This document shows positions 2,006-62,836 of a stretch of 64,000 bases of DNA, in pieces; within the stretch, counting starts at the first letter, position 1, and every line of letters starts with the position of its first letter. Origin of the DNA: Mobula hypostoma (taxonomy: Eukaryota). The DNA lies in assembly GCF_963921235.1 (NCBI RefSeq), contig NC_086108.1:5704001-5768000 (forward strand), in the 5' to 3' direction. The notes below the pieces were generated by a model, which searched no databases, was not told the DNA's origin, and saw nothing but the letters and a program-made list of their open reading frames with translations. Made by a program: the position numbers and the translations under genes.

Positions 2006-3564
2006 ACAATCATGCTCTTTCACTATGATAGTTTTCAGCAATTTTTTCTACAGAAGTGGTTTGCCATTGTCTTCTTCTGGACAGAGTCTTATTGACCCAG
2101 CCATTATCAATACTCTTCAGAGACTGTCTGCCTGCCTGATTTCTTGCTCAGTCAGTGCATGAAGGGATATGTGAAGAAGGCTGGAGCTTCTTCCCTCTGG
2201 CCATTAGGCTCCTGAACTCCACTTGAACTGTCACCGGTTAATCTGCTCTGTACCTGGCGATATTTAATTTATGCACTTTAGTTTGTGCATAATTCATTTG
2301 TAGATTTTATCCGTACTTTCCTAAGTTATTGTTTGTTATATGTGTTATGTGTACTACTGTGCTTTACACCCTGGTCTAGAGAAACGTCGTCTCATTTGAC
2401 GGTGTAATGTCTATAGTTAAATGACAGTAGAATTGACTTGACTCAAAAGCTGCAGACAGAATGGACAAACTCAACACAGAAAGCACCCAAGATTGAGACT
2501 GAACCTGGGTCACCACCTCTGTGAGGCATTGGCTCCACCAGCTGTGCCATCTTGATGCCCCTGGTGATCCTGTCGGAGAACCCGAGCAGTCAGATGTGGT
2601 GCCTCTCTGTACACTTCTATTCCCCGCTCTTACCTTTCGCTTCTTCTTACCTCCCCCGGTCCCCTCCTCCTTCTGTTTCTACTGCGGTCCATTTTCCGCT
2701 CCTATCACATTCTTTCTTCCTTGACCTTTCCCACCAGCCTGGCCTATCACCTTCCAACTCCACCACCCCACCTTTTTATTCTGGCATCTTCCCCCTTCCT
2801 TCTCAGTCCTGAAGAGCAGTGTTGGCCCAAAACGTCGACTGTTTTTTCATTTCCATGGATGCTGCCTGCCCCCATACCTGGAGCTCCCCCAGCACTCTGT
2901 GTGTGTGTGTGTGTTTACATGTACACCTGTTACTGGCCTCCATCTTTTTCCACCACATTTGTCATCAAGCTGAGGTCAGACCTCAAAGCCGGATGACGGT
3001 TGGAGCCTCCTTCCTCGTACTTGAGGGCCAGCCCTTAGCCATGAGCTTTAGTGGTGTCCGCCTGCCTTTGTGCTCCTCCAAACCTTTTTAAGACGGCTCC
3101 TCCACCGTACCCCTGGGGTGGTGGTCTTCTACTTGATGTCGTCTTTTTGAAAGTGGAACTCCAGGGCAGCATGGTAGCGGTTGGTGTAACACTTCACAGC
3201 GCCGACTGTAAGATCACCGCTGTACAGAGTTGATACGTTCTCACCATGACTGTGTGGGTTTACTCCACGTGCTCCAGTTTCCTCCTGCATACCACAGACC
3301 TACAGGTTAGGATTAATGAGTTGTGGGCATGCTGTGTTGGTGTCAAGGTGACACTTGCGGGCTGCCCCCGGCACATCCTTGGACTGTGGTTGCTGACGCG
3401 TTTCACCTTATGATTCAATGTACATGTGACAAATAAAATTTTATGAATGTATAAACACAAGAGATTCTGCAGATGCTGGAAACCCAGAGCAACACACGCA
3501 AAACGCTGGAGTTCAGGCAGCATCTGTGGAGAGGAATAAACAGTTGACTCTTTGGGCTAAGACC

Positions 3565-12652: not shown

Positions 12653-15600
12653 CCTGTCTCAACTTATTCTGATTCAAAAGCAATGAACAGCCTGGTCCCA
12701 CCGCACTCCTGCCCGACACAGTAGATGAAAGTTATCCCAGCTTGTTGGGTAGATCATAAATACAAGAGAATCTGCAGATGCTGGAAAGCCAGAACTCCTT
12801 GTCCAACTGCCTCAGAGACTAGAGTTTCTCATTGGCAACTCTAATAAAATAAGGACCATGGAGGCACCACTAAACATTCTGTAGAATTTGTGCAGCAATA
12901 GGCTGTGCAACATTACTGATCCACAGTGTCTGTCTCTGTCTCCATCTCCTGGAGGAACTCAGCAAGCCAGGCAGTGTCAATGGAAAGAAACATAATCACA
13001 AGAGATAAATCTGGCCCGAAATGTTGACTGTTTATTCCTCTCCATAGATGCTGCCTGACCTGCTGAGTTCCACCAGCGTTTTGTGTGTGTTGCCCTGGAT
13101 TTCCAGCATCTGCAGAATCTCCTGTGTTTATGACATCCATTAACTCTATACTTTCCCCTTGTATTTGACCTCCCAAATGGCAGCACCAAACGCTCGACAG
13201 GATAAAACTCCACAGGTTTTTCTTTTGGAATCTGAATCACTGTAAGACAGAGGTCTGTTTGACCCACAAACCCCAAGGGATAAATACATAAACACAAGAG
13301 AATATCCTGGCTTCTTCCCCCTTTCTTTCCAGTCCTGATGAAAGGTCTCAGCCTGAAGCGCCGGCTAGTTGTGTAGGTGCCCAAGAGAGCCAGTGGATGC
13401 ACAGCAAGATCCAAGGGTTACTGATGTGAAAATTGACAATTGAGAGAGTTGCTTGTTTCCTCGTTCTTCAGTGCCTGAAAGTTGGACCCTGATTTTTACA
13501 TCTGATCTGAAGGCAAATTGATTCTTGGTGCTGCCAAGGTGCCACCTTGAAGTGCCTGACTGGATGAAAACTCACATGGGAGCCAAGGGACAGTAGAAAA
13601 CATCTCCCATTTTAAAGGCCTAAGATGTGCCTTGTTGAAAAAGGATGGACCTGTTGAAGGTTGAAAGATTAGAATCAGAATCGGGTTTAATATCACCTTC
13701 CTACGTTGTAAAGTTTGTTGTTATGTGGCAGCAGTACATCGCAATATGTCATAATTTAAAGAACAGTGAATTGTAGTGTTCATGGGTTCAATGTTCATTC
13801 AGAAATCTGATGGCAGAAACTGTTTCTAAATCATTGAGTGTGTGTCTTCAGGCTTCTGTCCCTCCTCCCTACTGGTAGCAATGGAAGGGGGCATGACTGG
13901 GTGATGGGGGTCCTTAATAACAGCTTCTTTCCAACTGTGATCAGACAGCCGAACGGATCCTGACCTGGATCTGGGCCGTACCCTCCAAATACCCGGACCT
14001 GCATCTCGGTTTTTTTTTACACTACCTTACTTTCCATTTTCTATTTTCTATTTATGATTTATAATTTAAATTTTTAATATTTACTATCGATTTGTACTCC
14101 AGGGAGTGGGAAGCGCAGAATCAAATATCGCTGTGATGATTGTACGTTCTAGTATCAATTGTTTGGCGACTATAAAGTATAAAGTATAATGCTCCTTGAA
14201 GATGTCCTGGCTACTACGGAGGCTAGTGCTTGTGATGGAGCTGCCTGAGTTTACAACTTTCTGCAGCTTATTTCAATCCTGTGCAGTAACCCCTGTCCCC
14301 GCCATACCAAATGGTGATGCAGCCAATTAGAGTGTTCTCCATGGTACATCTGTGGAAATTTGTGAGTGTTTTAGGTGACGTACCAAATCTCCTCAAACGC
14401 TTAATGAAATATAGCCGCTGTCTTGCCATCTTTGTATTAAAATGTTGGGCCCAGAGTTGATCCTCAGAGATGTTGACACCTAGGAGCTTGAAATCCAGTT
14501 TCCACTTCTGATCCCTCGATGAGGACTAGTCTGGTGAACATGAAGAGGATGTTTTCAAAAGCTCCCTTCTAGAAAATGCTATAGGGCTGTTAAACCTTAT
14601 GTCACAGGTTTTTCTCCCAGGCAATGAATCTGATCAACCGTTCTGGTTATCTCCCCACCCCCTTCTGACTATTATCCCCATCACTGCACTGTAAACAGCT
14701 TAAACCACTGTTTGTAATGCTGTTTACGTAGCAAATACTTGCTGGTATTTGTGTACTTACGCACATTTTATAACATATCCGTAATTTAACCTCTAACTTT
14801 ATTTTATATACTTTATTCTTTATAATTGTTGAACATTGTTTTTTGTTGGTTAAACACTGTGACCTGACCAAGAAACCGCACAAATTTCGAAGACGTGTAA
14901 GTGGATGTGGGGGATAAAGTTGACTTTTTATGAACTCCTTATCCCTCAGTCTGCCTCATCATGGCCCAGTGGTGCGGAAGTCTAGGACCAGAGGACACAG
15001 CCCCAGAATGCAAGGATGTCCCTTTCAAACAGAGATGAGGAGGAACTTCTTGAATTAGAGGGTGGTGAATCTGTGGAATTCACTGCCACAGACGGCTGTG
15101 GACGCCAAGTTGTTGGGTTAATTTAAAGCAGAGGTTCATGTATTCTTGATCAGTCAGGGTGTCAAAGGTTACAGGGTGAAGGCAGGAAAATGGAGTTGAG
15201 AGGGACAATAAATCAGCCATGACTGTTCTGCCGTTCAGGTTGAATGGGCTGAATGGATAATTCTGCTCCCGTCCTGTGTCTCATGGGACAACCTTTTTAA
15301 ACGTACTATTAAAAATATTCAGGGTTATGGGCAGAAAACGATAGTATGAACCGCTGATACAATAGGCCGAATGGCCTTCTGCCTTATCTTATCGTCCCGT
15401 CTGCTCCGCCTGGCAAATGCCCCCGGCCAGTTTGGCTGAACGGTAGCCTGGGGGAGGGGGTGGTGGGCAAGGAGAATAAGATTGCTGTCAGCTTGAACTT
15501 TAAGGGAATTTTCTGTAGCCAGTGGCCTTGTACGTTGGGGGCTCGGCATTTTATTAAGGCTATTAACATTGCACAGTGAACCCTGTCAGATGTGAAGAGC

Positions 15601-23182: not shown

Positions 23183-25477
23183 GGCAACGAGCAAGAGGGA
23201 GGCAGAACATGGATTTTAAAAAAAATGAGGCACCAGGGACCAACTCTGAGGGGGAAAGAAAAGCATTTAAATAAAAGTCTGCGTTCTAAGCGAAACGCAA
23301 AAGCAAGCAGCAGTTTGGAATTGAGTGAGAGTCTCTTTAGCAGAAAAAACACATCTAATTGCCATTTGTATATTTGTGGAATAGTTTGGCAGCTGGAGTC
23401 AGATAGTTTTGTGGTTTTGTGGCTTGTGGTGCTTTGGGAACCCAGTTGGCACGGAGAGATTCCCGAGCAGACGGCCGGCCCCGTCTCCCATGGGAAGCTC
23501 CGGAATGTGGCTGCCATCAAGATACACAAGAGGCAGTTTTCCCAATTTAACATTAAACAAAACAAATTAACCTCCCCATACCCAGAAAAATATATTTTCA
23601 GTTTTAAGTTTTCCTTGGGGTTTTTTTTGCCGATGTGTGAAATTTTCCAATTGAGTATTGAATTAACTCTTTGAGCGCCAGGGCTGAATGCAGGGAGTGG
23701 AATTTTTCGGGACTGGAGTTTCAGCTCTGGGCATGAATGACCTTGGCTAGTCACTCGCGGGAGTCAAGGGGTGGCAAGCAGTTAGCGCGACACTTTAGTG
23801 CTTGGAGACTGCAAGATCAGAGTTCAGTTCCCGCCGCCTCCTGTAAGGAGCTTTTGTACGTTCTCCCCGTGACCATGTGGGTTTCCTCCGGATGCTCCGG
23901 TTTCCTCCCACATTTCAAAGACGTATGACTAGGATGAGCTGTGGGCAGGCAGTGTTGGCGCCAGAAGTGTGGCAGCTCTTATAAACTGCCCCCAGCGCAA
24001 TTCTTGCCGAGTTTTATTTATTTATTGAGATGGGGCTGGAAGGGTCTATTCTGCACTTCGAGCTGTGCCACCAAGTAATCCCCCAATTTAATCCTACCCT
24101 AATCGCAGGACAATTTACAATAACAATTTACAATTTACACAGTCTTTGGACTGTGGGAGGAAACCGGAGCACCGGGAGGAAACCCACGCGGTCACGGGGA
24201 GAAGGTACAAACTCCTTACAGGCAGCGGCGGGAATTGAACCGTAAAGCATTGTGCTGACCACTACACCACCATGTTGCCCCTACGCTGCAATGTGCAGAT
24301 CTGCTGCAAAAGACACATTTTACTGTTTCAATGTGCCTGTGATAAATAAAGCCTATCTAATCTTTGTATGTCCATGCAAAGTCTGGGGAGACAGATGGGT
24401 TACAACGCACCTCCTAAAAGAGAGGAGGGCATGAGTATTAAGGAGGATTGGTGACTGATACCACAGTTGCCAATGTGGTGGTAACAACTTCTGGTTTAAG
24501 GTGGCACTACTGCACGTGTGCGGCACTCACTGGTAGTTTGAAAGGCAAGAAATACGACTAAAAACATTATTAATAACATCTTTTCTGAAGTAGATTGTGG
24601 TCAACTATCACTGCAAGCGATGAAGAAGCAAGCAGGAGGTGAAGCTGATTTGAAGGGTAGGCCGTGAGGGTGTATTGCAAAGCTGAGGCACAACGTGTTC
24701 TAGGCAGAGTTGGTATTGCTGTCACTGTTGGAGTTGGAGTGAGTGATTTGGAAAGGAGTCGATGCGGAAGAGCTTCGATGCCCATCTACCCAACCTGGGT
24801 GCGTGGTTGGATTGTTCCAAGTGCTGAGCTGTTTTGGCAAGATGGAGAATGGCTTCGGGCTGTGCGACTGGAGTGTGATGCTGCACTGGGATCCCGGTCC
24901 TAGAGCGAGGCATTACCCGGTGACTGGGCAAACTAAACGCTGGTCCAGCTAGACTGGAAAGCCGAGCGTGGGGACTGGAGGCGAGGGTCAGGCTGATTTT
25001 GCTGGTTCTCCTGTGATGTTCATTCCTGTCTGTGCAATGCCAAGACTGTGAACTGTCTGGCGGCTGTCGTCTCTGTGAGTTCTGTGCTGCTTTTGATGAA
25101 CTGAGATAGAGACTCCGGGAAGTGGACCTAAGGACTCAATTTGGTTCGGAATGCTGTCTGTTGTTTGATGATGTGTGTGTGTGTGTTATTTGTTCCTCTT
25201 TCTCTGCACAGTGGTTATAGTCTCTTTTTTAAAAGAAAACCAGGTTCATTGGCTTTCTTGCTCTGTGGCTGCCTGTAAGCAGACACACCTCAAGGTGAAT
25301 AATTTATACATTCTTTGATAATACCTGTACTTTCAATCTTTAAACTCACGTAGATGAGAAAAAAAATTAAATGGAACTGTAAACAACAGGAATTCTGCAG
25401 ATGCTGGAAATTCAAGCAACACACATCAAAGTTGCTGGTGAACGCAGCAGGCCAGGCAGCATCTCTAGGAAGAGGTG

Positions 25478-25515
25478 CAGTCGACGTTTCAGGCCGAGAC
25501 CCTTCGTCAGGACTA
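25478..25515 (-). ncRNA. Minimal hammerhead ribozyme motif in the inverted Penelope arm
   Basis: Exact reverse complement of 27331-27368 (cagtcgacgtttcaggccgagacccttcgtcaggacta). Confidence 0.72.
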
Positions 25516-27330
25516 ACTGAAGGAAGAGTGAGTAAGAGATTTGAAAGTGGGAGGAGCAGGGGGAGATCCAAAATGATAGGAGAAGACAGGAGGGGGAGGG
25601 ATAGAGCCGAGAGCTGGACAGGTGATTGGCAAAAGGGATACGAGAGGATCATGGGACAGGAGGACCGGGAAGAAAGACAAGGGGGGGGGGACCCAGGGGA
25701 TGGGCAAGGGGTATATTCAGAGGGACAGAGGGAGAAAAAGGAGAGTGAGAGAAAGAAAGTGTGTATAAAAATAAGTAACAGATGGGGTACAAGGGGGAGG
25801 TGGGGCAACCTCCTTACTCATTAGTCCTTACTCTTAATAATTTCTCCTTTGGCTCCTCACACTTCCTCCAAACTAAAGGTGTAGCTATGGGCACCCGTAT
25901 GGGTCCTAGCTATGCCTGCCTTTTTGTTGGGTTTGTGGAACAATGTATGTTCCGTGCCTATTCTGGTATCTGTCCCCCACTTTTCCTTCGCTACATCGAC
26001 GACTGCATTGGCGCTGCTTCCTGCACGCATGCAGAACTTGTTGACTTTATTAACTTTGCCTCCAACTTTCACCCTGCCCTCAAGTTTACCTGGTCCATTT
26101 CCGACACCTCCCTCCCCTTTCTAGATCTTTCTGTCTCTGTCTCTGGAGACAGCTTATCCACTGATGTCTACTATAAGCCTACTGACTCTCACAGCTATCT
26201 GGACTATTCCTCTTCTCACCCTGTCTCTTGCAAAAACGCCATCTCCTTCTCGCAATTCCTCCGTCTCCGCCGCATCTGCTCTCAGGATGAGGCTTTTCAT
26301 TCTAGGACGAGGGAGATGTCTTCGTTTTTTAAAGAAAGGGGCTTCCCTTCCTCCACTATCAACTCTGCTCTTAAACGCATCTCCCCCATTTCACGTACAT
26401 CTGCTCTCACTCCATCCTCCCGCCACCCCACTAGGAATAGGGTTCCCCTGGTCCTCACCTACCACCCCACCAGCCTCCGGGTCCAACATATTATTCTCCG
26501 TAACTTCCGCCACCTCCAACGGGATCCCACCACTAAGCACATCTTTCCCTCCCCCCCTCTCTGCTTTCCGCAGGGATTGCTCCCTACGTGACTCCCTTGT
26601 CCATTCGTCTCCCCCATCCCTCCCCACTGATCTCCCTCCTGGCACTTATCCTTGTAAGCGGAACAAGTGCTACACATGCCCTTACACTTCCTCCCTCACC
26701 ACCATTCAGGGCCCCAAACAGTCCTCCCAGGTGAGTCGGCTGGGGTGATATACTGCGTCCGGTGCTCCCGATGTGCCTTCTATATATTGGCGAGACCCAA
26801 CGCAGACTGGGAGACTGCTTTGCTGAACACCTACGCTCTGTCCGCCAGAGAAAGCAGGATCTCCCAGTGGCCACACATTTTAATTCCACACCCCATTCCC
26901 ATTCTGACATGTCTATCCATGGCCTCCTCTACTATAAAGATGAAGCCACACTCAGGTTGGAGGAACAACACCTTATATTCCGTCTGGGTAGCCTCCAACC
27001 TGATGGCATGAACATCGACTTCTCTAACTTCCGCTAATGCCCCACCTCCCCCTCGTACCCCATCTGTTACTTATTTTTATACACACTTTCTTTCTCTCAC
27101 TCTCCTTTTTCTCCCTCTGTCCCTCTGAATATACCCCTTGCCCATCCTCTGGGTTCCTCCCCCACCTTTCTTTCTCCCTGAGCCTCCTGTCCCATGATCC
27201 TCTCATATCCCTTTTGCCAATCACCTGTCCAGCTCTTGGCTCCATCCCTCCCCCTCCTGTCTTCTCCTATCATTTTGGATCTCCCCCTCCCACTCCAACT
27301 TTCAAATCCCTTACTTACTCTTCCTTCAGT

Positions 27331-27368
27331 TAGTCCTGACGAAGGGTCTCGGCCTGAAACGTCGACTG
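27331..27368 (+). ncRNA. Minimal type I hammerhead ribozyme motif in Penelope pLTR
   Basis: tagtc-CTGACGA-agg gtctcgg cct-GAAA-cg-TC^gactg. Conserved core CUGANGA/GAAA/UH, stem I agtc:gact, 3-bp stem II, palindromic ACGT stem III. Predicted cleavage after 27363. Confidence 0.75.
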
Positions 27369-29179
27369 CACCTCTTCCTAGAGATGCTGCCTGGCCTGCT
27401 GTGTTCACCAGCAACTTTGATGTGTGTTAAATGGAACTGTAACACTGGTTGTCTAACCTGGTTGGTAACACATTGGCCAATTTGTTACCAAAGCCAACCA
27501 CGCAAGTACTTCCCACATCTGTCCTCTATATTGGTCAGCCATGGCTCTCCTGCTAGTGCCCTGCCCAGCCCCACTGTCAATTCAACCTCTAATCCTACCA
27601 GCAACTCAAGCTCGGAAGTCCTGGTGAGTTTTAAGTGTCCTGTCATGCAAGATGTGGCCTTTAAGTTTACTCACACAATCCAAGTACGTATGGGTTATGG
27701 TTAGTAGGCTGAGGGCATGCTGCATTGGCACTGGAAGCGTGGTACCACTTGCAGATGTGCCTCCCCGCACTCCCCACCCCAGGACATCCTCTAACTGTTG
27801 ATCATTGACACAAATGATGCATTCAAAGACTCAAGGTCCATTTATTATCAAAGTATGTATGCAGTACCCAACAAGAGGACCACAGACTTGTCGTAGGGCT
27901 TGGAGGCTTGTGTGCCTCAGTGACCCGGAGGACCACGCTGGCTGGAGTCAAAGATTTATGATTTGACTCTTGGTAGGGTCACCCATGCCAAATAGGTCAA
28001 AGGGTAGAGGCCAGGCTCAGAGTGGTCCACAGGTGTTCCCGGTTTGGGGGTTCAGCTCAGGGCTCACAACCCTGTCTGGTCAAAAGCTAATTGTTATGGA
28101 AACAGCAATGAAGAATACTTCTATACAGACAGAGATGGAGGATCTTCATTGCTGCCCTAAATACCAGAGTTGTAACGGGCAGTTTTTAAAAAAAAACTAA
28201 AAAAAAAATGCCAGAGTTGTAACGGGCAGTAAGTACGTATTATGTACTATACAACTCTGAGATTAGACTTCCCACGAAACAAAGAAATACCATGGAACCC
28301 GTTCAAAGAAAAACATCAAACCCCCAACGTGTAGAGAACAAATCATGCAAATGGCACAAAAGTAGTGGGGGAGAAAACACAGAATATAAAACAAAGTCAT
28401 CAAAACAGACCAGTTCATTCTACTGTATGTGTCTCATCATCCAAGATGCTGCCTTCCAGTTTCCTCGGGGAGGGAAAGCAGGCCTAAGCCTTATGGGTTG
28501 CTAAGTTGTGGGCATGCTATCGTCGTCTCAGAAGTCAGGCGACACTTGCGGGCTGCCCATCTCCCATTCTTCAACTGTGGTGACCGTTGACATAAAAGAT
28601 GCATATCATTGTCTGTTTCAGTATCAAGGTCGACCATGGGCGTTGCATCCTAGTTGTCTAGATACGCAAGCCTGGGCAGTACGATATGGAGAGCAAGCTG
28701 TTGCCCACGTAGCATCTGATGATCCTCCATCTGATGAACCCAAAGGAACGGCAGAGACCGATACAGTTTGGCACCAGTTGTGTTGCAGAAGTTGCCAGTT
28801 AGCGTTGAATTCAATGTAGGGCTGCCTTACAGTTTCCAGCTCTGGATTTTTACCCTGGGTTTACTCCCATGAGTGGATGTAGCTGCAAGATGGTGGAGGA
28901 TTGGGATCAGAGTATTCCTTCTCTTAGATGAGCTGACAACCATGGTTGGTGAACCCCATCCGCCCCAAGCAACTGGCTTTAAGGCACCAGTAACCCAGCT
29001 TTGCGTCTTCTACAGTGAGTAGAAATGGTTCTGCCGGGCTTAGTAAGCCACAAGTGAAGACCAGAAGCTGGACTTGGTTGTCAGAGGCTATTTGAGGCAT
29101 ACATCACTGGGAGCATTTAATAGATAGTGGGAGTTTATCCCCATTACCACCCCTGGCAATAATGACCTTAATGAACCTC

Positions 29180-30640
29180 AGTACAAAGCAAAAACGAATT
29201 TCTACAAATTGGTCTAAATTTATTACAATTTTAAACACAAACTAATTGTATAATTACTCCTTCAAGTCAATATTTAGTAGATGTACCTTTGGCAGCAATT
29301 ACAGCCATGAGTCTGTGTGGATAGGTCTCTATCAGCTTTGCACATCTGACACTGCAATTTTCCCCTTCTTCTTTACAAAACTGCTCAAGCTCTGTCAGAT
29401 TGCATGGGGATCGTGAGTGAACAACCCTTTTCAAGTCCAGCACAAGTTCTCAATTGGATTGAGGTCTGGACTCTGACTTGGCCACTCCAGGATATTATCT
29501 TTGTTTTTAAGCCATTTCTGTGTAGCTTTGGCTTTTTGCTTGGGGTTATTGTCTTGCTGGGAGATAAATCTTCCCCCAAGTTGCAATTCTCTTGCAGACT
29601 GCATCAGGTTTTCCTCCAGGATTTCCCTGTATTTTGCTGCATTCATTTTACCCTCTACCTTCACAAGCCTTCCAGGGCCTGCTGCAGTGAAGCATCCCCA
29701 CAGTATGATGTAGCCACCACCATGCTTCACGGTGGGGACGGTGTGTGTTTGATGATGTGCGGTGTTTGGCTTACGCCAAACATGGTGTATAGTCTGATGG
29801 CCAAACAGCTCAATTTTTGTTTCATCAGACCATAGAACCTTCTTCCAGCTGTCTTCAGAATCTCTCACATGCCTTCTGGCAAACTCTAGCCGAGATTTCA
29901 TGGGAGTTTTTTTTCAACAGTGGCTTTCTCTTTGCCACTCTCCCATAAAGCTGTGAGTGGTGAAGCTCCCAGGCAACAGTTGTATGCACAGTCTCTCCCA
30001 TCTCAGCCACTGAAGCTTGTGACTCCTCCAGAGTTGTCATAGGTCTCTTGGTGGCCTCCATCACTAGTCCCCTTCTTGCACGGTCACTCAGTTTTTGAGG
30101 ACAGCCTGCTCTAGGCAGATTTACAGCTGTGCCATATTCTTTCCACTTCTTGATGATTGATTTAACTGTACTCCAAGGGAGATTCAGTGACTTGGAAATT
30201 TTCTTGTATCCATCTCCTGACTTGTGCTTTTCAATAACCTTTTCACACAGTTGCTTGGTATGTCCTATTGTCTTCATGGTGTAGTTTTTGCCAGGATACT
30301 GACCCACCAGCAGTTGGACCTTCCACATACAGGTGTATTTTTACTACAATCAATTGAAACACCTTGTCTGCAGATGGTGATCTCTATTTAACTAATTAAT
30401 GTGACTTCTGAAACCAATTGGCTGCACCAGTGATGACTTGGTGTGTCATATTAAAGGGGGGGGGGTGAATATTTGTGCAATGAATTATTTTGTTTTATAC
30501 TTGTAATTAATTTAGAACATTTTGCAGAGATCTGTTTTTTGCTTTGACGAGAAGGAGTTTTTCAGTTGATCAGTGTCAAAACAAAAGAATTAAATTAAAT
30601 CCACTGTGATTCAATGTTTTAAAGTGATAAAACAATAAAA
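29180..30640 (-). mobile_element. Tc1/mariner transposon with frameshifted transposase
   Basis: ORF 29855-30328 is the paired-like HTH (GDGYKKISKSLNLPWSTVKSIIKKWK). ORF 29431-29901 is the DDE domain ([35 protein letters not shown]). Inverted-repeat remnants at ~29186-29230 and ~30495-30547. Confidence 0.9.
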
Positions 30641-33559
30641 ATACGCGGGCAACATGGGATGCGGGCGACACGAGACATGCACAGACACACACACTTCGGG
30701 CAGATGGGGCTCGTCAGTCGTGGTTGGCAGCTCACCTAGGAAAAGGAAAACTCTGATCTCAAACCTCTGCTGCCTTGTGGCTGTACCCACTCATGGGGAA
30801 GGCTTCGGTAGTAAATCCCGAGGGGAAAACTCCAGAGCTGGGGTTCCTAAAGCAGTCTTATATTGAGTTCAACGTTGACTGGCAACTTCTGTGATGCTGC
30901 TAGTACCCAACTCTATCAGCCTCTGCCATTCCTTTGGGTTCATCAGCTTGCTACGAGGGCAACAGCTTGTCTCCATATTGTACTGCCCAGGCTTGCGTAT
31001 CTAGACGGTGAGGACACAACGTCCATGGTTGAGCCAGACCGGTGGAGGCCTCGAGTAGGTATATATGTATTTCATACTGTAATTCACAGTTTCTATTATT
31101 GTGTATTGCAATGTACTGCTGTTGCATAGACAACACATTTCACAACGTATGCTGGTGACATTTCACCTGATTGTGATTCGCCAAACAAGACTTAGATCAT
31201 ATCATCAGTGTCTCATTGTTTCTCTAAGAGCTTTCTGAATGTTAGGAAGCCACTGCATTTCTTGCCTTATATTTTTGGACCAATTAGAGGCAATGGAAAG
31301 TGCTATGCCCTACAAGCATCCCTCTCTGCGCTTCAGCTTTTAAAAAAAAACCTTGTCTGGTCATTTGTCGGTCTTGCCACTATCTTTGCTTTATGCAGTG
31401 GTAACATCCACTCTCCTTGCTGCTCGTACTGTACCTAATGGCATAATTGTGGCCAAGCTTGATAATGGGTCTAAAATCACAAGCATTCTTTGCTCACATC
31501 TGCCACAGATCTGATTGATTTGGAGGCCGCCAGGCATTGATTGGAAATCTGAGCTGAAAGCTGGGCGTAGAGGGCAGAAGACATTTATTAAATCCGAGTG
31601 ACCTGCCTAGCTCACTGATTGTGTGGTGTAGAAGCTGCAAGGCATTGGACCAGAAGACCCTACAGGGGACAGTAGAAACTGCCCAGAGGATCACTGGGGA
31701 CTTCCTCCCCCGTGCTTGTGACATCTACTGGGAGCGTATTACATGAAGGATTGGAAGCACTGTTCAGGATCTCTACCATTCATCGCACAATCACTTTGAC
31801 CCCCTACCATCAGGAAGGAGGTACAGGAGCATCAGGACTCGGACTGCCAGACTGGGCAACAGCTTCTTCCCTCAGGCTGTGAGAGTAATGAATACCCTGT
31901 CACTCCCGAGGTCTCGTCACTACCGCAGCGAGCTGTTTACTGCTTACCTTTGCTGTGCACTACATGCACCTTGAATTATATTTTATTAACTTACTTGTGG
32001 TAATATTTTGGTTTATGTGCTGTTTGTGATATACGTATTGTGGGTGCACCGTGATCTGGAGGAACGTTGTTTTGTATACAACAGAGTTATAAGAGAAGAT
32101 TGAATGGGTTAGAACTTCATTCCTTGGAACATAGAAAATTTAATAGAGGTAAATTTGAGATATAGACAGGGTAAATACGAGCAGGCTTTTCCCGCTGAGG
32201 TTGGGTGGGACTACAACCAGAGGTCATAGGTTAACGGTGAAAGTTGAAAAGTTTGTGGGGAACATCAGGGCAAACCTCTTCACTCAGAGGATCATGAGAG
32301 TGTGGAAAGAGCTGCCAGCATAAGTGGTGATTTCAACATTTAAGAGCAGTTTGGATAAGTACATGCATAGGAGAGCTATTGTCCCGGAACAGGTCGATGG
32401 AAGTAGGCAGTTTAAATGGTTCAGCATGGAATAGATGGGCTGAAAGGTCTGTTTCTGTACTGTATTTTTCCATGACTCTACGTGTACAGTCAGATAACAA
32501 AACACTTGAACTTGCCTAGATAAGTCGACTGCTACTTAAAACTTCTCGAACTCTGTCTCCCTCTTCCTCCCGCTCGAAAACCCTTGCAACTACTTGATGC
32601 CTTCTGAAATTACTGAGTGCATCGGATGACATGTGCGTGTGCAGCCTCATATTCCTGGCAAGGTCCCACATATCAAGTGCCAATCACTCCTAGATAGCCA
32701 TGGTGCAGCCAAGAGCAGGCGTCTCGTTTTCAGACCCACCATCATCACTTGGCAAAGGAAGAGAACTTTTGCAATAACAACTTTGGGGATCCACATATTC
32801 ATCCGTAGCTAATAAGAATTTTTTTTCTTTGAGCATATAATGGAAAAGTAACGCAAATTCATTCCTCTCTGTTTTCCCATGCTCAAGATTCCTAAGTAAC
32901 TTAAAACAGATGGGAGAGCGGGGAGATTGGGACGCCACGGTAGTGGAGTGGTTACTGTGACACTGTTATGGCTCGACATGTTGGAATTTGGAGTTCAGTT
33001 CAGGTGCTGTCTATATGTTCTGCCTGTGACTGCGTGGATTTCCTCCAGGTGCTCTGGTTTCCTCCCAGAGTCCGAAGACGTTCCAGTTAGAAGGTTAATT
33101 GGTCATTGTAAATTGTCCTGTGATAAGGCTGGGGTTAAATAGCTGGCTTGCTGGGTAAGGGCCGATTCTTCACCGTATCTCTAAATAAATAAAATTGCTG
33201 GCAATTTGAGGAGAAAAATATTTTAAAAAAATCTCAATTCCAGTTAAGATGAGGGAGTCCAGGATATCAGCTATCCCATTATGCTCCAAGATTGCTGTTT
33301 CTGCTTTTAAAATTTTCCCCATTCCAGAGAAGTGCAAATTCTGTCAGGTTGCTCCACACATTGATTCGAAAGGCAACTTGTCCTGATTTAGGGTCACTGC
33401 CCAAAATATTTTGACAATTTCTTTTCTCTCCTTCTGCTCCTCGATGCACTGAGTTTCTCCAACAGGCTGTTTTTCATTCTGCCCTCACATAACCTGTAAA
33501 GTGACCCCTAAGTGGTTTTCTGAGCTGCATCAATACTGTCTAATACAAGTACTTTAAAG

Positions 33560-36621: not shown

Positions 36622-37480
36622 CAAACACGAGAGATTCTGCAGATTTTGGAAATCCAGAGTAACACACACACAAAATGCTGGAGGAACTCTGCAGGTCAGG
36701 CAGCATCTATGGAAATGAATAAACAGTCAATGTTTTGGACCGAGACCCTTCTTTAGGACTGAGAAGGAAGGGAGAAGACACCAGAATAAAAAAAAGTAGG
36801 GGGAGGGAAAGGAGGATAGTTAGAAGGTGATAGGTGAAGCCAGGTGGGTGGGAAGGGTAAACAAAGAAGGAATCTGTTAGGAGAGGAGAGTGGACCATGG
36901 GAGAAAGGCAAGGAGGAAGGGACCCAGGGGAAGATGATAGGCAGGTGAGAAGTGGTAAGAGGCCAGAGTAGGGAATAGAAGAGGGGAGGAGGAGGAGGGA
37001 GCATTTTTTTTAATCTGGAAGGAGAAATCAATATTCATGCCATCAGGTCAAAGGGTACCAAGATGGAATATAAAGTGTTGCTTCTCGACTCTAAGCACAG
37101 GAGGAGGCCATAGACCGACATGTCAGAACAGGAATGGGAATGAGAATTTCAATGTTTGGGCACCTGGAGGTTGTGCTTTTGGTAGATGGAGGTGGTTGAC
37201 AGAGCCTCATCCTGGGAACAGACGCTGGGCAGACAAAGGAACAGAGAAAAGGCAACAGCTTTTTTACAGGGGAAGAGGTATAGTCAAGATAACCGTGGGC
37301 GTCAGTAGGTTTATAAAAGATATCGGTTGACAGTTTGTCTTCAGAGAGGTCGAGAGAGAGATCGAGCAAGGGATGAGAGAGGTATCAGAGATGGACCAAG
37401 TGAATTTGAGGCCAGGGTGGAAGTTAAAGACAAAGTTGGTGAAACTGACGAGCTCAGTGTGGGTGAATGAAGGAGCTCCA
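36622..37480 (-). mobile_element. Degenerate Penelope-like fragment
   Basis: LDLSLDLSEDKLSTDIFYKPTDAHGYLDY and FHPGLKFTWSISDTSL; pLTR with a decayed hammerhead at ~36723-36761. Confidence 0.8.
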
Positions 37481-37489
37481 ATTAATGAG

Positions 37490-39922
37490 ATAGAAACATA
37501 GAAACATAGAAAATAGGTGCAGGAGTAGGCCATTCAGCCCTTCGAGCCTGCACCGCCATTTATTATGATCATGGCTGATCATCCAACTCAGAACCATGCC
37601 CCAGCCTTCCCTCCATACCCCCTGACCCCTGTAGCCACAAGGGCCATATCTAACTCCCTCTTAAACATAGCCAATGAACTGGCCTCAACAGTTTCCTGTG
37701 GCAGAGAATTCCACAGATTCACCACTCTCTGTGTGAAGAAGTTTTTCCTAATCTCGGTCCTAAAAGGCTTGCCCTCTATCCTCAAACTGTGACCCCTCGT
37801 TCTGGACTTCCCCAACATCGGGAACAATCTTCCTGCATCTAGCCTGTCCAATCCCTTTAGGATCTTATACGTTTCAATCAGATCCCCCCTCAATCTTCTA
37901 AATTCCAACGAGTACAAGCCCAGTTCATCCAGTCTTTCTTCATATGAAAGTCCTGCCATCCCAGGAATCAATCTGGTGAACCTTCTTTGTACTCCCTCTA
38001 TGGCAAAGATGTCTTTCCTCAGATTAGGGGACCAAAACTGCACACAATACTCCAGGTGTGGTCTCACCAAGGCCTTGTATAACTGCAGTAGTACCTCCCT
38101 GCTCCTGTACTCGAATCCTCTCGCTATAAATGCCAGCATACCATTCGCCTTTTTCACCGCCTGCTGTACCTGCATGCCCACTTTCAATGACTGGTGTATA
38201 ATGACACCCAGGTCTCGTTGCACCTCCCCTTCTCCTAATCGGCCACCATTCAGATAATAATCTGTTTTCCTATTTTTGCCACCAAAGTGGATAACTTCAC
38301 ATTTATCCACATTAAATTGCATCTGCCATGAGTTTGCCCACTCACCCAACCTATCCAAGTCACCCTGCATCCTCTTAGCATCCTCCTCACTGCTAACACT
38401 GCCACCCAGCTTCGTGTCATCCGCAAACTTGGAGATGCTGCATTTAATTCCCTCATCCAAGTCATTAATATATATTGTAAACAACTGGGGTCCCAGCACT
38501 GAGCCTTGCGGTACCCCACTAGTCACTGCCTGCCATTCTGAAAAGGTCCCGTTTATTCTCACTCTTTGCTTCCTGTCTGCTAACCAATTCTCCACCCACA
38601 CCAATACCTTACCCCCAATACCGTGTGCTTTAAGTTTGCACACTAATCTCCTGTGTGGGACCTTGTCAAAAGCCTTTTGAAAATCCAAATATACCACATC
38701 CACTGGTTCTCCCCTATCCACTCTACTAGTTACATCCTCAAAAAATTCTATGAGATTCGTCAGACATGATTTTCCTTTCACAAATCCATGCTGACTTTGT
38801 CCGATCATTTCACCGCTTTCCAAATGTGCTGTTATCACATCCTTGATAACTGACTCCAGCAGTTTCCCCACCACCGACGTTAGGCTAACCGGTCTATAAT
38901 TCCCCGGTTTCTCTCTCCCTCCTTTTTTAAAAAGTGGGGTTACATTAGCCACCCTCCAATCCTCAGGAACTAGTCCAGAATCTAACGAGTTTTGAAAAAT
39001 TATCACTAATGCATCCACTATTTCTTGGGCTACTTCCTTAAGCACTCTAGGATGCAGACCATCTGGCCCTGGGGATTTATCTGCCTTCAATCCCTTCAAT
39101 TTACCTAACACCACTTCCCTACTAACATGTATTTCACTCAGTTCCTCCATCTCACTGGACCCTCTGTCCCTTACTATTTCTGGAAGATTATTTATGTCCT
39201 CCTTAGTGAAGACAGAACCAAAGTAATTATTCAATTGGTCTGCCATGTCCTTGCTCCCCATAATCAATTCACCTGTTTCTGTCTGCAGGGGACCTACATT
39301 TGTCTTTACCAGTCTTTTCCTTTTTACATATCTATAAAAGCTTTTACAGTCCGTTTTTATGTTCCCCGCCAGTTTTCTTTCATAATCTTTTTTCCCCTTC
39401 CTAATTAAGCCCTTTGTCCTCCTCTGCTGGACTCTGAATTTCTCCCAGTCCTCAGGTGAGCCACTTTCTCTGGCTAATTTGTATGCTACTTCTTTGGAAT
39501 TGATACTATCCCTAATTTCTCTTGTCAGCCACGGGTGCACTACCTTCCTTGATTTATTCTTTTGCCAAACTGGGATGCCATTGCATATCCACCGTCAATC
39601 CTTTAAGTGTCATTTGCCAGTCTATCTTAGCTAATTCACGTCTCATACCTTCAAAGTTACCCCTCTTTAAGTTCAGAACCTTTGTTTCTGAATTAACTAT
39701 GTCACTCTCCATATTAATGAAGAATTCCACCATATTATGGTCACTCTTACCCAAGAGGCCTCTCACGACAAGATTGCTAATTAACCCTTCCTCATTGCTC
39801 AAAACCCAGTCCAGAATAGCCTGCTCTCTAGTTGGTTCCACTACATGTTGGTTCAAAAAACCATCCCGTATACATTCCAAGAAATCCTCTTCCTCAGCAC
39901 CTTTACCAATTTGGTTCACCCA
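37490..39922 (-). mobile_element. Young CR1 LINE with uninterrupted 650-aa RT region, 5'-truncated with an internal deletion
   Basis: ORF 37588-39540 has the full RT ([25 protein letters not shown]). ORF 39554-39919 is the endonuclease C-terminal part (ILDWVLSN, LGKSDHNMVEF). The (TTTCTATG)n CR1 3' tail reads atagaaac repeats at ~37490-37510. Confidence 0.95.
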
Positions 39923-40799: not shown

Positions 40800-42554
40800 T
40801 ACGTGGGAGGGAAGGGTTAGATTTATCTTGGACTAGGTTAAAGTTCAGCACAACATGATGGGCCGAAGGTCCTGTGCTGCTGTCTGAGCTGAAACGTCCT
40901 GTGCTGCTGGTCTGAGTAGGAATGTCCTGCTTGAAATGGCACTGGGAGAAATTTTACTTGCAGCTTTCAACCTGGAATTAGATTAATTTTAAGGAAATTT
41001 CCCATGACCTTGAGAAAAGGATAACAGAAAGCACGGTAGCAGAGTGATTAGCACAACGCTTTACAATACGGCGACTCAGGTTCAATTCCCGTCACTGCTT
41101 GTACATTCTCCTGTGACTACATGGGTTCCTCTGGGTGCTCCAGTTCGATGTACTGGTCAGTAGGTTAACTGGTCTTTGTAAACTGTCCCTGGATTAGGCT
41201 CGGATTAAATTGGTGGATTGCTGAGTGGCATTTCTCAAAGGGCTGGGAGGGTGTATTCTGTGCTGTATCTCAATAAATAAACAAATGAGTAGCAATTAGC
41301 ACAACGCTTTACACTGGGGTTCAATTCCCGCTGCTGTCTGTAAGGAGTTTGTACGTTTTCCCGGTGACTACCTGCGTCTCTTCCAGGTGTCCTGGTTCCC
41401 TCCCACACTGGAAGCAGGGCAACACTTGATAGTTGAAGGGTAGTAACAGTTCTTGAACCTGGTGGTGCGAGTCCTGAGGCTCTTGTACCTTCTAGGTGAT
41501 GGCAGCAGCGAGAAGAGAGCACGGCCTGGGTAGTGGGGATCTCGGCTAATGGATGCTGCTTTCCTATGACAGCATTTTGTGCTAATTAGTTGGGAGGGTT
41601 TTACCTGTGATGTACTGTGCCAAATCCACTACCTTCTGTAGGATTTTCTGTTCAAAGTACTGAGCAGTGGTAAAAATACTATAAATTACAATAAAAAATA
41701 CACAGTAATGAAGAAAGTGAGTTAGTGTCCGTGGCTTGGCATGTTTGTTGGCTCTGGGACTTGCTGACAGTGAACAGTGAGATCGGGCTTTCTCTTTCGT
41801 CTCAGGGTGGTGCAGCTGTGTAGAAAGTGTGATGGCTGTTCCAGGCAATGGGCCCAATCCAGTCTGTTATAATGGGAAGGCTTCAGGGTGTGATTTGGTG
41901 TCCACGATGCCTAATGAACCTCTTCATTGCTGTAAACGGTGGCTTAATGCTATTATAGAGCCAGTGAACCCGGCTTCAATTTCCACCGCTGTCTATCAGG
42001 AGTTTGTACGTTCTCCCCGTGACCGTACAGGCTTCCTCCGCGAGCTCTGGTTTCCTCCCACAGTCCAAAGCTGCACTGGTTAGTAGGTTAAGTGGTCACT
42101 TGGGTGTAATTGGCTGTTGCAGCTTCCTGGGCTGGAAGAGTATCATTAAACAAATAAATGGTCTGGGATCTTCCTCCGTTACTTACATTCTCAAGAGAGC
42201 AAGTAAGACGCGAAGCTGAAGACCCCAGCCTGACCCAGAGCCCACTCTCGTTTTGAATCTTTAAAACGGGTTATTTATTTGCCTTTTCCTTGTTTTCAGA
42301 ACATTTAGGGTCCCTTGCTTGCATGCCTTCATCCCTTCCTGGTCAATTCTATTGTGAACTGTACAGCTTGCAATGACATATGCCGATAGGTCACCATGGC
42401 AACGTGTCTGAGTTGCTGCCATGGCCTATACAGTTCAGCCCATCAGCTGCTCTGCTAAAGTAAGAAAAAAGGGACTTTATATTTCTCTAACTTCCTCCCG
42501 TCCCCCTTCTCTCTTTTCCCCCATTCCCCATTCCGATGATTCTTCTCTAAATTG

Positions 42555-43500
42555 GTGAGACCCATTGTAAATTGAGGGGGGGGGGAGGGCTCTTCACTGA
42601 GCACCTCCACTCCGTCTGCCAAAAGCAGAACTTCCCAGTGGCCAAACACTTCAATCCCCATTCCCATTCAGATGTGTCGGGCCATGGTCTCCTCTTGAGC
42701 TACGATGAGGCCACCCTTGGGGGAAGGAGCAACACCTCATGTTCTGTCTGGGTAGCCTCCAACCTGAAGGCATGAATACTAAATTCTCCTTCCGGTTAAA
42801 ACAAATGTCCCCTCCTTCTCCCCTCTTCTTCTATTCCCCACTCTAGCCTCTTACCTCTTCTCACCTGCCTACCACGTCCTCCTGAGTCGCCTCCTTCTTC
42901 CCTTTCTCCCATGGTCCACTCTCCTCTCCATTCCTTGACCTTTCCCACTCACCTGGCTTCACTGATCACCTAGCTATCCTCCTTCCCCTCCCTCCACTTT
43001 TTTATTCTGGCATCTTCCCACTTTCTTTCCAGTTCTGAAGAAGGCTCTCGGCCTGAAATATCGATTGTTTATTCTCCTCCATAGATGCTGCTTGACCTGC
43101 TGAGTTCCTCCTGTATTTTGTGTGTGTTTCTCTTGTTTATGATTACTCTCTCACCACTTCTCATCTCCTCACCTGCCCATCACCACCCTCTGATTTCCCC
43201 TCCTCTTTCCCTTTCTCCCATGGTCCACTCCCCCTCTCCGATCAAATTATTTCTTTTTCTGACCTTTACCTCTTCCATCTATCACCTCCCAACTTCTCCC
43301 TTCATCCCTCCCACTCTCCTCCTAACCTGGCTTCACCTATCACCTGCCAGGTTATACTTCTCCCCCACCCTCCCACCTTCTAATTCTGACTTCTACCCCC
43401 TTCCTTTCCAATCCTGAAGAAGGGTCCTGGCCCAAAACGTTGACTGTTTGTTCCTCTCCGCAGACGCTGTCTGACCTGTTGAGTTCCTCCAGCATTCTGT
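42555..43500 (+). mobile_element. Degenerate Penelope 3' end with tandem pLTRs
   Basis: FTEHLHSVCQKQNFPVAKHFN..HSHSDVS; two successive pLTR copies ending ~43130 and ~43500. Confidence 0.75.
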
Positions 43501-48620: not shown

Positions 48621-48792
48621 TTTCTGATAGCTGAGAGTGACCGAGGGGGCCTCTGCAACATCAATTGCTCCAAGGGCCAGCAGAAGCCAGTGTGTGGCAG
48701 CGACAGGAAACTCTACAAGTCCCATTGTGCCTTCCAGAGGGCAAAGTGCAGGGACCCAACCCTCGAAACCGTGTCTCGGAGCCGATGTAGCG
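48621..48792 (+). CDS. SMOC1: SMOC1-type gene, internal coding exon (Kazal/follistatin-like domain; equivalent to exon 2)
   Basis: Acceptor gttgctttag| and donor |gtaagt; 172 nt, phase 0 to 1. Translates FLIAESDRGGLCNINCSKGQQKPVCGSDRKLYKSHCAFQRAKCRDPTLETVSRSRCS(E). This has Kazal cysteine spacing and resembles SMOC1 as I recall it (FLISDRDPQC...KPICASD...QRAKCRDPTL). SMOC1 versus a SMOC1-like paralogue needs a tree. Confidence 0.92.
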
Positions 48793-49229
48793 GTAAGTGT
48801 GACGACTCAAGGCTACACAATGACTCTTCCAATCATCAATTGCATGCTTCCAATGTAACATCTGTCAATAACACACGCAAAATGCTGGAGGAACTCAGCA
48901 GGTCTGGCAGCATCTGTGGAGAGGAATACATGTTCAACGTGTTGGGCCAAGACCCTTGACTTGTTAATTTTTGTGAACATTGTGTATCTTGGAAAACCTC
49001 TCAGGAAAACCCAGCCTACTCTGCGTGGATTCTGTCAATGCCCTTTGTCTTGCCAGCATAATCAACAATCCCATCCATCCCAGACATTCTCTCATCTCAA
49101 AGTTCAAAGTAAACTTTATTATCAAAGTACATACACATCACCATATCCAACTCTGAGGTTCACTTTCCCGCAGGCATGCCCTGCAAATCTATAAAATAGT
49201 AACTCTAGTTACATTTTATAGTAACTGTC

Positions 49230-59340: not shown

Positions 59341-60012
59341 CCCCTGCCCATTCACCTCCTCCGTTACCTCCATCAGGGCCCCAAACAGTCCCACCAGGTG
59401 AGGCAACACTTCACCTGCGAATCTGCTCAGGTCATCCATTGCGTCTGGTGAGGCCTGTTGTAAATTGGGGGACCACCTCGTCAAGCACCTCCAGCACATC
59501 CACTGCAAGCGGGACTTCCTGTGGCCAAAGATTTTAATTCCCATTTCCAGTCTCACATGTTGGTCTATGGCTTCCTCTTGTGCCAAGATGAGGCCAACCT
59601 CAAGGCAGAGGAACAACACCTAGTATTCTATCTGGGTGGTCTCCAACCTGATGGTATCAATATTGATTTCTCCTGGTAAACAGATTCTCCCCAACCCCTT
59701 CCTGTATTCCCCACTCTGACCTTGCCTACCTATTACTTCCACTGGGTCCCCTCCTCCTTCTCTTTCCCCTTGGTCCACTCTCCTCTCTTATCAGATACCT
59801 TCTTCTCCAGCCCTTGACCTTTCCCACCCATCTGGCTTCACCCATCACCTTGGTGCAATCCTCCTTCCCCTCCCCCCACCTTTTTATTCTGACATCTTCC
59901 CCCTTCCTTCTCAGTCTTGAAAAAGGATCTTGGCCCGAAACATTGTCTAACTATTCATTTCCATAGATGTGCCTGACCTGCCGAATTCCTCCAGAATTTT
60001 ATGTGTGTGTTG
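59341..60012 (+). mobile_element. Degenerate Penelope 3' end / pLTR
   Basis: Homologous to 26675-27428. Confidence 0.72.
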
Positions 60013-62723: not shown

Positions 62724-62836
62724 AGAGGTCTAAAGTGAGATGCCAGGAAGACAGAGCCCAAGCGTTGGCACAAACCAGGAAGACAACGGACTCCATCATT
62801 GTCCCTGAATGTAATGAGGATGGCACCTTTGCACAG
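62724..62836 (+). CDS. SMOC1: SMOC1-type gene, internal coding exon (start of thyroglobulin type-1 domain; equivalent to exon 3)
   Basis: Acceptor tctattttccag| and donor |gtaatg; 113 nt, phase 1 to 0, compatible with the previous exon. Translates (E)RSKVRCQEDRAQALAQTRKTTDSIIVPECNEDGTFAQ, resembling SMOC1 CRLERAQALEQAKKPQEAVFVPECGEDGSFTQ. Not in the ORF track. Confidence 0.92.

What the first reader, a model, noticed from the sequence alone, without database searches (positions are those of the whole stretch)
27331..27368. Intact minimal hammerhead ribozyme in the sense strand of the SMOC1 intron
Seen: a complete hammerhead core (CUGACGA, GAAA, GUC^) with stem I agtc:gact, a 3-bp stem II and a loop-less palindromic stem III (ACGU), inside a Penelope pseudo-LTR. 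Established: Penelope-like elements carry minimal type I hammerheads, and the palindromic stem III favours dimeric cleavage. Inference: this copy lies on the + strand of what is probably SMOC1 intron 1, so it could cut the host pre-mRNA co-transcriptionally if it folds.
Basis: partly seen in the sequence, partly recalled or inferred. Interest (0 to 1): 0.7.

Follow-up and report, generated by a model that had tools for sequence, protein, structure and literature searches.

The report
Penelope hammerhead masked by inverted copy
This is an intact copy of the small hammerhead RNA motif already known from Penelope-type jumping genes, left by a broken element upstream of the second coding exon of a SMOC1-like gene in a cartilaginous fish; the same insertion put a mirror-image copy just before it, which is predicted to pair with the motif in the host transcript, so it likely does not cut the host RNA.

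Summary
The motif is real: complete core, 5-bp stem I, palindromic ACGU, site 27363/27364; 4 descriptor matches in the window against 0.02 expected. It lies in the 3' pseudo-LTR of a dead, 5'-truncated Neptune-type Penelope element (25383-27426, 16-bp target-site duplication). On a + strand transcript this antisense arm is made first; folding puts all 38 motif bases in the long duplex, 76 kcal/mol below the hammerhead shape. Published metazoan Penelope hammerheads did not cleave as monomers or needed the element's protein (PMC4209133, PMC11167929), and no matching intact + strand partner lies in the window. Corrections: the family stem II is 4 bp after a bulged A, with G10.1-U11.1 here; the gene is 'SMOC1-like', and its first coding exon is not in the window, so 'intron 1' is inferred. 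The scan has reported this motif family many times before. Cleavage was not tested. Ordinary.

The parts
27331..27368 (+). Minimal type I hammerhead motif; core complete; predicted cut 27363/27364; stem II 27344-27347 with 27352-27355 after bulged A27343
27038..27426 (+). 3' pseudo-LTR of the element; begins at the base after the ORF stop codon and ends 63 nt past the cut site (plus or minus 2)
25818..27037 (+). 5'-truncated, frameshifted ORF remnant: RT C-terminal part (YIDD at 25992), CX4CxxC linker (26653), GIY-YIG-type endonuclease region; matches residues 396-800 of an 806-aa relative in three frames, with about 20 residues missing near 26735
25383..25807 (-). Inverted pseudo-LTR copy plus a 35-37-nt tail; 94.6% identical to the 3' pseudo-LTR over 391 columns; antisense on a + strand transcript
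25478..25515 (-). Second hammerhead motif, identical (0 of 38 mismatches), on the minus strand
25367..25382 (+). Left copy of a perfect 16-bp AT-rich target-site duplication
27427..27442 (+). Right copy of the 16-bp target-site duplication
27317..27347 (+). Local alternative hairpin (27317-27329 with 27336-27347) predicted to take up CUGA and the 5' side of stem II before GAAA is made; not stronger than shuffled upstream sequence at a significant level (32 of 300)
48621..48792 (+). SMOC1-like exon (Kazal domain), AG/GT borders, second coding exon by comparison with relatives
62724..62836 (+). Next SMOC1-like exon (start of thyroglobulin type-1 domain)

Best explanation
The motif is the standard minimal hammerhead of a Penelope-like retroelement's pseudo-LTR, carried by one dead, truncated insertion, and in a host transcript it is predicted to be locked in a 390-bp duplex with the inverted copy upstream, so it likely does not cut the host RNA. 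Shown in the sequence: one insertion with a 16-bp target-site duplication, built as inverted pseudo-LTR with tail, then truncated RT-endonuclease ORF, then pseudo-LTR; both arms run 63 and 100 nt past the cut site. Inferred: the element was copied from RNA not cut at this hammerhead (or rejoined), from two reverse-transcription start points about 37 nt apart. Predicted: RNA polymerase II reading the + strand makes the antisense arm first, the sense arm zips onto it for about 280 nt, and the hammerhead bases pair to their exact complement as they emerge. From the literature: the motif's activity belongs to the element's own RNA-protein particle, where it needs a dimer or the element's protein.
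For: Insertion anatomy; it matches the inverted 5'-truncated copy and 30-40-bp tail described for PLEs (PMC8557442 passages) and the two-start-site origin of the tail (PMC11167929). Contiguous + strand fold of 25380-27450: 38 of 38 motif bases and 376 of 389 sense-arm bases pair with the antisense arm; 280 of 293 are paired in a transcript that stops just before the motif. Forcing the hammerhead shape costs 76 kcal/mol with the arm and 5-10 kcal/mol without it (4-6 in the preferred register). The double-hammerhead geometry scores -11.1 against -22.0 for two monomers and -30.3 for the best cofold. Of 8 other + strand copies, 6 have core changes and 2 have ATAT instead of ACGU. 16 of 18 pseudo-LTR fragments run at least 47 nt past the cut site and 15 of 18 span it. 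Single minimal motif: no cleavage; dimers low (PMC4209133). Anolis element: no cleavage without protein, cleavage not needed for insertion, no RNA-seq ends at the site (PMC11167929). The family is very abundant: 315,565 and 306,092 contigs laid on the element in two DNA runs.
Against: No cleavage assay exists for this sequence or family. Nearest-neighbour folding does not model the catalytic core, proteins, or nuclear helicases and ADAR, which could open the duplex. The core is complete and the hammerhead region differs between the arms at only 1 of 110 positions against 19 of 280 elsewhere (p about 0.02, region chosen after looking). The title of Lunse et al. 2016 says small Penelope hammerheads cleave as dimers (seen only in a reference list; paper not held). 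A transcript starting between the arms would escape the mask. Two weak fragments end 2-4 nt past the cut site and one starts 7 nt past it.
Confidence: 0.85

Rival explanations
1. One reading: the + strand copy folds in the nascent SMOC1-like pre-mRNA and cuts it in cis, as a monomer or with another intronic copy, fast enough to lower splicing. About 21 kb separate it from the next exon, which would leave minutes for a cut.
For: Complete core, GUC site, same strand as the exons. An intronic ribozyme with a 2-3 min half-life, 9.9 kb before the next exon, lowers CPEB3 mRNA (PMC10274809 passages).
Against: Predicted full masking by the antisense arm; no stem III as a monomer; no matching intact partner among 8 other + strand copies; G-U at 10.1-11.1; relatives inactive alone. 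Orientation of 18 fragments shows no deficit on the + strand (11 plus, 7 minus, p=0.48), a small sample of mostly decayed copies.
Confidence: 0.03
2. The site is cut in trans: RNA of active family members, helped by the element's protein, supplies the enzyme strand and pairs through stem I and the ACGU palindrome with intronic copies in host pre-mRNAs.
For: The double-hammerhead geometry with both stem I and stem III intermolecular is nested and possible. Protein-assisted cleavage is shown for the Anolis element. The family is very abundant.
Against: Only 4-5-bp helices hold the partners; the geometry is 11 kcal/mol worse than two free monomers; this copy is masked; no evidence here of an active source element.
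Confidence: 0.03
3. The hammerhead is silent, but the long hairpin itself acts on the host RNA, as an A-to-I editing substrate or a modifier of splicing, like inverted repeat pairs in other vertebrates (recalled, no call).
For: 390-nt arms, 94.6% identical, 1230 nt apart; predicted to form.
Against: It lies 21 kb from the nearest known exon; such pairs are common in this window; no RNA evidence was obtained.
Confidence: 0.07
4. A transcript that starts inside the element (pseudo-LTR promoter) lacks the antisense arm, leaves the motif free and is processed like normal element RNA.
For: PLEs typically have promoters in their pseudo-LTRs (PMC6765202 passages).
Against: The copy is truncated and frameshifted; still a monomer with a competing local hairpin; no locus-specific transcript shown.
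Confidence: 0.04

Closest known systems
Minimal hammerheads (min-HHR) in pseudo-LTRs of metazoan Penelope-like elements (Cervera and De la Pena 2014, PMC4209133; parts 1-2 of 4 of the main text read)
   Same: Type I, 4-5-bp stem I, no real stem III, palindromic 15.2-16.2 positions, extra base between 9 and 10.1, place in the pseudo-LTR; pairs on opposite strands close together are described there too.
   Different: Stem II is 4 bp (7-8 bp in the Schistosoma family described in the text); G10.1-U11.1 instead of G-C; the parts read name bony fishes, coelacanth, frog and reptiles but no shark or ray, and the one searchable supplement has no shark or skate row (the figure supplement could not be searched).
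Poseidon element of Anolis carolinensis and its protein-assisted hammerhead (Frangieh et al. 2024, PMC11167929; parts 1-2 of 4 read)
   Same: Hammerhead near the pseudo-LTR end, copies running past the cut site, optional 30-40-nt tail at one end, AT-rich target.
   Different: This element has the CX4CxxC linker of Neptune/Nematis-type elements and is a dead truncated copy; nothing was assayed here.
Neptune-clade EN+ Penelope-like elements with inverted 5'-truncated copies (Craig et al. 2021, PMC8557442; 12 passages read)
   Same: RT then zinc-finger-like linker then C-terminal GIY-YIG; inverted-repeat structure; tail at one end.
   Different: Clade placement rests on the linker motif only; no tree with named reference elements was built.
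Host-acting intronic ribozymes: CPEB3 HDV-like ribozyme (PMC10274809, 7 passages) and the amniote intronic hammerheads (PMC6765202, PMC6155905 passages)
   Same: Lies on the sense strand upstream of an exon.
   Different: Those are conserved motifs outside abundant repeats (single-copy status recalled), and CPEB3 has a measured half-life of minutes; this is one of very many repeat copies, lacks stem III, and is masked by its own inverted copy.

Membership tests
Minimal type I hammerhead of metazoan PLEs | Conserved core CUGANGA, GAAA, NUH | tested here: met
Minimal type I hammerhead of metazoan PLEs | Stem I of 4-5 bp open at the ends (type I) | tested here: met
Minimal type I hammerhead of metazoan PLEs | No stem III, palindromic 15.1-16.1 stretch | tested here: met
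   ACGU at 27359-27362
Minimal type I hammerhead of metazoan PLEs | Extra nucleotide between 9 and 10.1 | tested here: met
   bulged-A register pairs in 12 of 13 distinct copies at its first pair
Minimal type I hammerhead of metazoan PLEs | G10.1-C11.1 pair (highly conserved, not invariant) | tested here: inconclusive
   this copy has a G-U wobble; G-C in 5, G-U in 6, A-U in 1, unpaired in 1 of 13 distinct copies; the family-wide allele was not among the rows shown
Minimal type I hammerhead of metazoan PLEs | Located in the pseudo-LTR of a PLE | tested here: met
Minimal type I hammerhead of metazoan PLEs | Self-cleavage as dimer or with protein | not testable with these tools
   needs a bench assay
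EN+ Penelope-like element | RT followed by C-terminal GIY-YIG endonuclease in one ORF | tested here: met
   remnant aligns with residues 396-800 of P0026, annotated PF00078 and PF01541; the window pieces alone gave no Pfam hit for these domains
EN+ Penelope-like element | Pseudo-LTR repeats, inverted truncated copy, 30-40-nt tail | tested here: met
Neptune clade | CX2-5CxxC linker between RT and EN | tested here: met
   CX4CxxC at 26653; Nematis shares this motif
Neptune clade | Groups with named Neptune elements in an RT tree | not tested
   no named reference elements among the 120 hits listed
Canonical hammerhead families in Rfam | Match to a curated covariance model | tested here: not met
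   no hammerhead model at E<=5 in 24000-31000
Non-LTR retrozyme | Short tandem units without an ORF | tested here: not met
   motif follows an RT-EN remnant; the second copy is inverted, not tandem
Host-acting intronic ribozyme (CPEB3-like role) | Free to fold on the pre-mRNA | tested here: not met
   prediction only: 38 of 38 bases paired to the antisense arm
Host-acting intronic ribozyme (CPEB3-like role) | Inside a transcribed intron | tested here: inconclusive
   first coding exon not in the window; no transcript shown

The most novel reading that the evidence does not exclude
Inverted Penelope insertions neutralise their own ribozyme. Because the inverted pseudo-LTR puts an antisense copy ahead of the sense hammerhead whichever strand is transcribed, such insertions would be safe inside genes, while lone sense-strand copies with intact cores would be cut (in cis or in trans with element protein) and purged. 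Intact intronic hammerheads in sharks and rays should then be enriched in inverted pairs beyond what copy age explains. In this window the only 2 of 14 copies with core, both stems and palindrome all intact are this inverted pair, but they also look the youngest.
Probability: 0.05. Interest if true: 0.55.

Novelty: new member of a known kind. Interest (0 to 1): 0.12.

Why it matters
As it stands it matters little: it is one of very many copies of a motif described in 2014, and Penelope-like elements are known to be common in shark introns (30% of whale shark copies are intronic; 10.1101/443036 passages). The useful point is a caution: a sense-strand hammerhead in an intron says nothing about host RNA cleavage until the inverted arm typical of these insertions is considered. 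If lone intact copies did cut pre-mRNAs and inverted pairs were spared, a repeat family this large would be a real load on long shark and ray genes and would give an in vivo test of whether Penelope hammerheads are active, which PMC8557442 calls unclear.

Tried and rejected
No whole genome is held, so no genome-wide copy count, strand bias or search for exon 1 outside the window was possible. Rfam: no hammerhead hit. Pfam on the ORF pieces: no RT or GIY-YIG hit; identity came from relatives. ESM Atlas on the Kazal exon: generic Kazal clusters at 0.81-0.85, no gene name. Sequencing runs: no RNA holder listed on record. Four runs guessed to be RNA gave no contig over the Kazal exon, so exon 1 and expression could not be read from them (no finding either way). 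Two raw-read DNA runs laid 0 reads on the element (no test), so no read-level allele counts at the core. Summed contig depth over the motif is about 4e5 times that of the unique flank in both DNA runs, but the tool states this is no copy number; I use it only as 'very abundant'. Covariation over 13 distinct window copies: not above shuffles. Upstream hairpin as a conserved off-switch: 32 of 300 shuffles do as well, rejected for now. Retrozyme reading rejected (ORF remnant, no tandem units). The alignment step printed nothing and was not used. Searches timed out and were rerun smaller. Lunse et al. 2016 is not held. Paper searches: 'Penelope + hammerhead + shark' gave 4 papers, of which I opened one (its 'shark' is the shape simile) and judged three irrelevant from the listing; 'SMOC1 + SMOC2 + paralog + cartilaginous' gave 0; two papers on G10.1-C11.1 gave no rate for a G-U pair in the passages shown. 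Whether the gene is the SMOC1 ortholog or a paralog was not tested.

Full report
Observation. The 38 bases at 27331-27368 are as described: (U)AGUC, CUGACGA, a short stem II, GAAA, the palindrome ACGU, C17 at 27363 and GACU(G). A core descriptor written after seeing the motif gives 4 matches in the window against 0.02 expected, with 0 of 100 shuffles reaching 4. A scan for stretches within 12 mismatches finds 14 copies, 9 on the + strand and 5 on the minus strand. Four of 14 keep all core bases; only 2 of 14 also keep both stems and the palindrome, namely this copy and an identical one at 25515-25478 on the minus strand. Rfam does not see the motif at E<=5, and its fold is not more stable than shuffles, as expected for a motif without stem III.

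Stem II correction. The register with a bulged A and G27344 opposite U27355 fails in 1 of 13 and extends to 4 bp. It agrees with the extra base between positions 9 and 10.1 that Cervera and De la Pena describe (PMC4209133). This copy thus has G-U where that paper reports a highly conserved G-C. Both arms of the insertion share it, so it probably came from the donor. Its effect on rate is unknown to me (searches gave no number).

What it sits in. The motif is part of one insertion, 25383-27426, between two perfect copies of a 16-bp AT-rich target site at 25367 and 27427. From left to right: an inverted pseudo-LTR with a 35-37-nt tail (25383-25807, minus strand), a short filler, an ORF remnant (25818-27037) and the 3' pseudo-LTR (27038-27426), which starts right after the stop codon. 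The arms are 94.6% identical over 391 columns and 1230 nt apart. The ORF piece finds 297 relatives at E<=0.001 among 1363 candidates; named ones with highest identity are from sharks and rays (67-76%). It aligns to residues 396-800 of an 806-aa relative annotated with RT and GIY-YIG domains, in three frames, so this copy is truncated and dead; it has the YIDD motif and a CX4CxxC linker, the mark of Neptune and Nematis elements (PMC8557442 passages). The same paper describes the inverted 5'-truncated copy and the 30-40-bp tail as usual for these elements. Both arms carry T at 27087 where 98% and 91% of summed family depth in two runs has A, which fits one donor. In two DNA runs with different organism labels, over 300,000 contigs each lie on the element. 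In both, a contig joins the last 21 bases of the element to the unique flank (0 differences in 457 nt; 8 in 349 nt), which suggests the insertion is shared by the two organisms; 21 bases is below the tool's 31-base rule for bridging. In one run 511 contigs stop matching exactly at 27332 on the upstream side, so likeness among subfamilies begins at stem I: the motif is kept by the element family.

Host gene. Two exons with AG/GT borders lie on the + strand at 48621-48792 and 62724-62836, with Kazal and thyroglobulin type-1 matches. The first is 84-91% identical to 6 shark and ray proteins and 49% to one bony-fish protein, all 7 hits named 'SMOC1-like'; the second is 97% identical to a stingray protein. 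Residues 1-29 of these proteins have no match in the window. The first coding exon is therefore probably upstream of base 1, which would put the motif in an intron of over 48 kb, 21 kb before the next exon. That is an inference. Transcription over the site was not shown, and orthology to SMOC1 was not tested.

How it most likely works. (1) Shown: both arms run past the cut site, by 63 and 100 nt. Of 18 pseudo-LTR fragments found at E<=1, 15 span the site, 16 run at least 47 nt past it, 7 end at +63 to +67 (this copy placed by its target-site duplication) and 5 at +94 to +99, a cluster bounded by the query's end at +100; 2 weak ones end at +2 and +4 and 1 starts at +7. Inferred: copies were made mostly from RNA not cut here, with two start points. 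This is what Frangieh et al. found for the Anolis element, where the hammerhead cut only with protein, was not needed for insertion, and left no RNA-seq ends (PMC11167929). (2) Predicted: on a + strand transcript the antisense arm comes first. In the minimum-energy fold of 25380-27450, all 38 motif bases and 376 of 389 arm bases pair with it, and 280 of 293 are already paired in a transcript ending just before the motif. Forcing the hammerhead shape costs 76 kcal/mol. Without the arm it still costs 4-10 kcal/mol depending on register and context. By symmetry the same holds for a minus-strand transcript. (3) From the literature: a single minimal motif did not cleave and dimers cleaved poorly (PMC4209133). 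The double-hammerhead geometry is possible on paper but 11 kcal/mol worse than two monomers, and none of the 8 other + strand copies has both an intact core and a matching palindrome. I put 0.85 on an inert, masked relic.

Against this reading. Nothing was assayed. Folding models omit proteins and tertiary contacts. The motif region is better kept between the arms than the rest (1 of 110 against 19 of 280 differences, p about 0.02, region chosen after looking); the first 110 bases of the arm are nearly as well kept, and at two differing sites (27297, 27309) both alleles are common in the family, so template differences explain it as well as selection. Orientation shows no deficit of + strand copies (11 of 18, p=0.48), but the sample is small and mostly decayed.

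Known or new. It works like, and by every feature I could test belongs to, the minimal hammerheads of metazoan Penelope-like elements, apart from the G-U pair. I saw no shark or ray example in the parts of PMC4209133 I read or in its searchable supplement (the figure file could not be searched), and a 2026 preprint reports hammerhead-bearing retrozymes in one chondrichthyan genome (10.64898/2026.07.22.740005, 12 passages). Lunse et al. 2016 could not be read. Searches are listed under Tried and rejected. This scan holds 12 earlier findings with the same key words in at least 7 genomes, 8 shown, including two from this genome; these are unchecked notes and not support.

Verdict. Observation confirmed; interpretation partly supported; new member of a known kind; interest 0.12. 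The boldest reading left open is that inverted insertions shield host genes from their own ribozyme (probability 0.05), testable genome-wide.

Noticed in passing
window 28630-31032 (-): Tc1/mariner-type DNA transposon remnant with long inverted ends (repeat pairs I3, I4, I7); frames match Sleeping Beauty HTH and DDE_3; broken into at least two frames.
   Followed up: partly
window 37588-39594 (-) and 52-2047 (-): Two near-identical LINE-type RT copies; the first has a 668-aa open frame with RVT_1. CR1/L2-like by recalled resemblance.
   Followed up: partly
window 23822-24240: Short inverted pair of a small repeat (70 nt at 90%, 219 nt apart, plus 32 nt at 88%); another copy near 33009-33156. 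Would also form a hairpin in a transcript.
   Followed up: no
window 36630-37638 (-), 42533-43126 (+), 59345-60018 (+): Older Penelope-like copies of related subfamilies with ORF remnants at about 70-75% DNA identity and decayed hammerheads.
   Followed up: partly
window 59714-60018 (+) and 60113-60208 (-): Two older pseudo-LTR ends face each other about 95 nt apart, a second possible inverted pair, inside the intron between the two located exons.
   Followed up: no
window 48870-48957 (-): A decayed pseudo-LTR end lies 78 nt downstream of the Kazal exon's splice donor.
   Followed up: no
window 27297 and 27309 against the inverted arm: The two arms differ at sites where both alleles are common in the family, yet share a rare allele at 27087; the arms may come from two slightly different pseudo-LTR templates of one donor.
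   Followed up: partly
window 25808-25830: The junction between inverted arm and ORF has a short fold-back and a 9-base duplication of the ORF start, suggestive of microhomology priming.
   Followed up: no
window 13330-13367 (+): A decayed copy has GCGC in place of ACGU, still palindromic, and homology stops 4 nt past the cut site.
   Followed up: no
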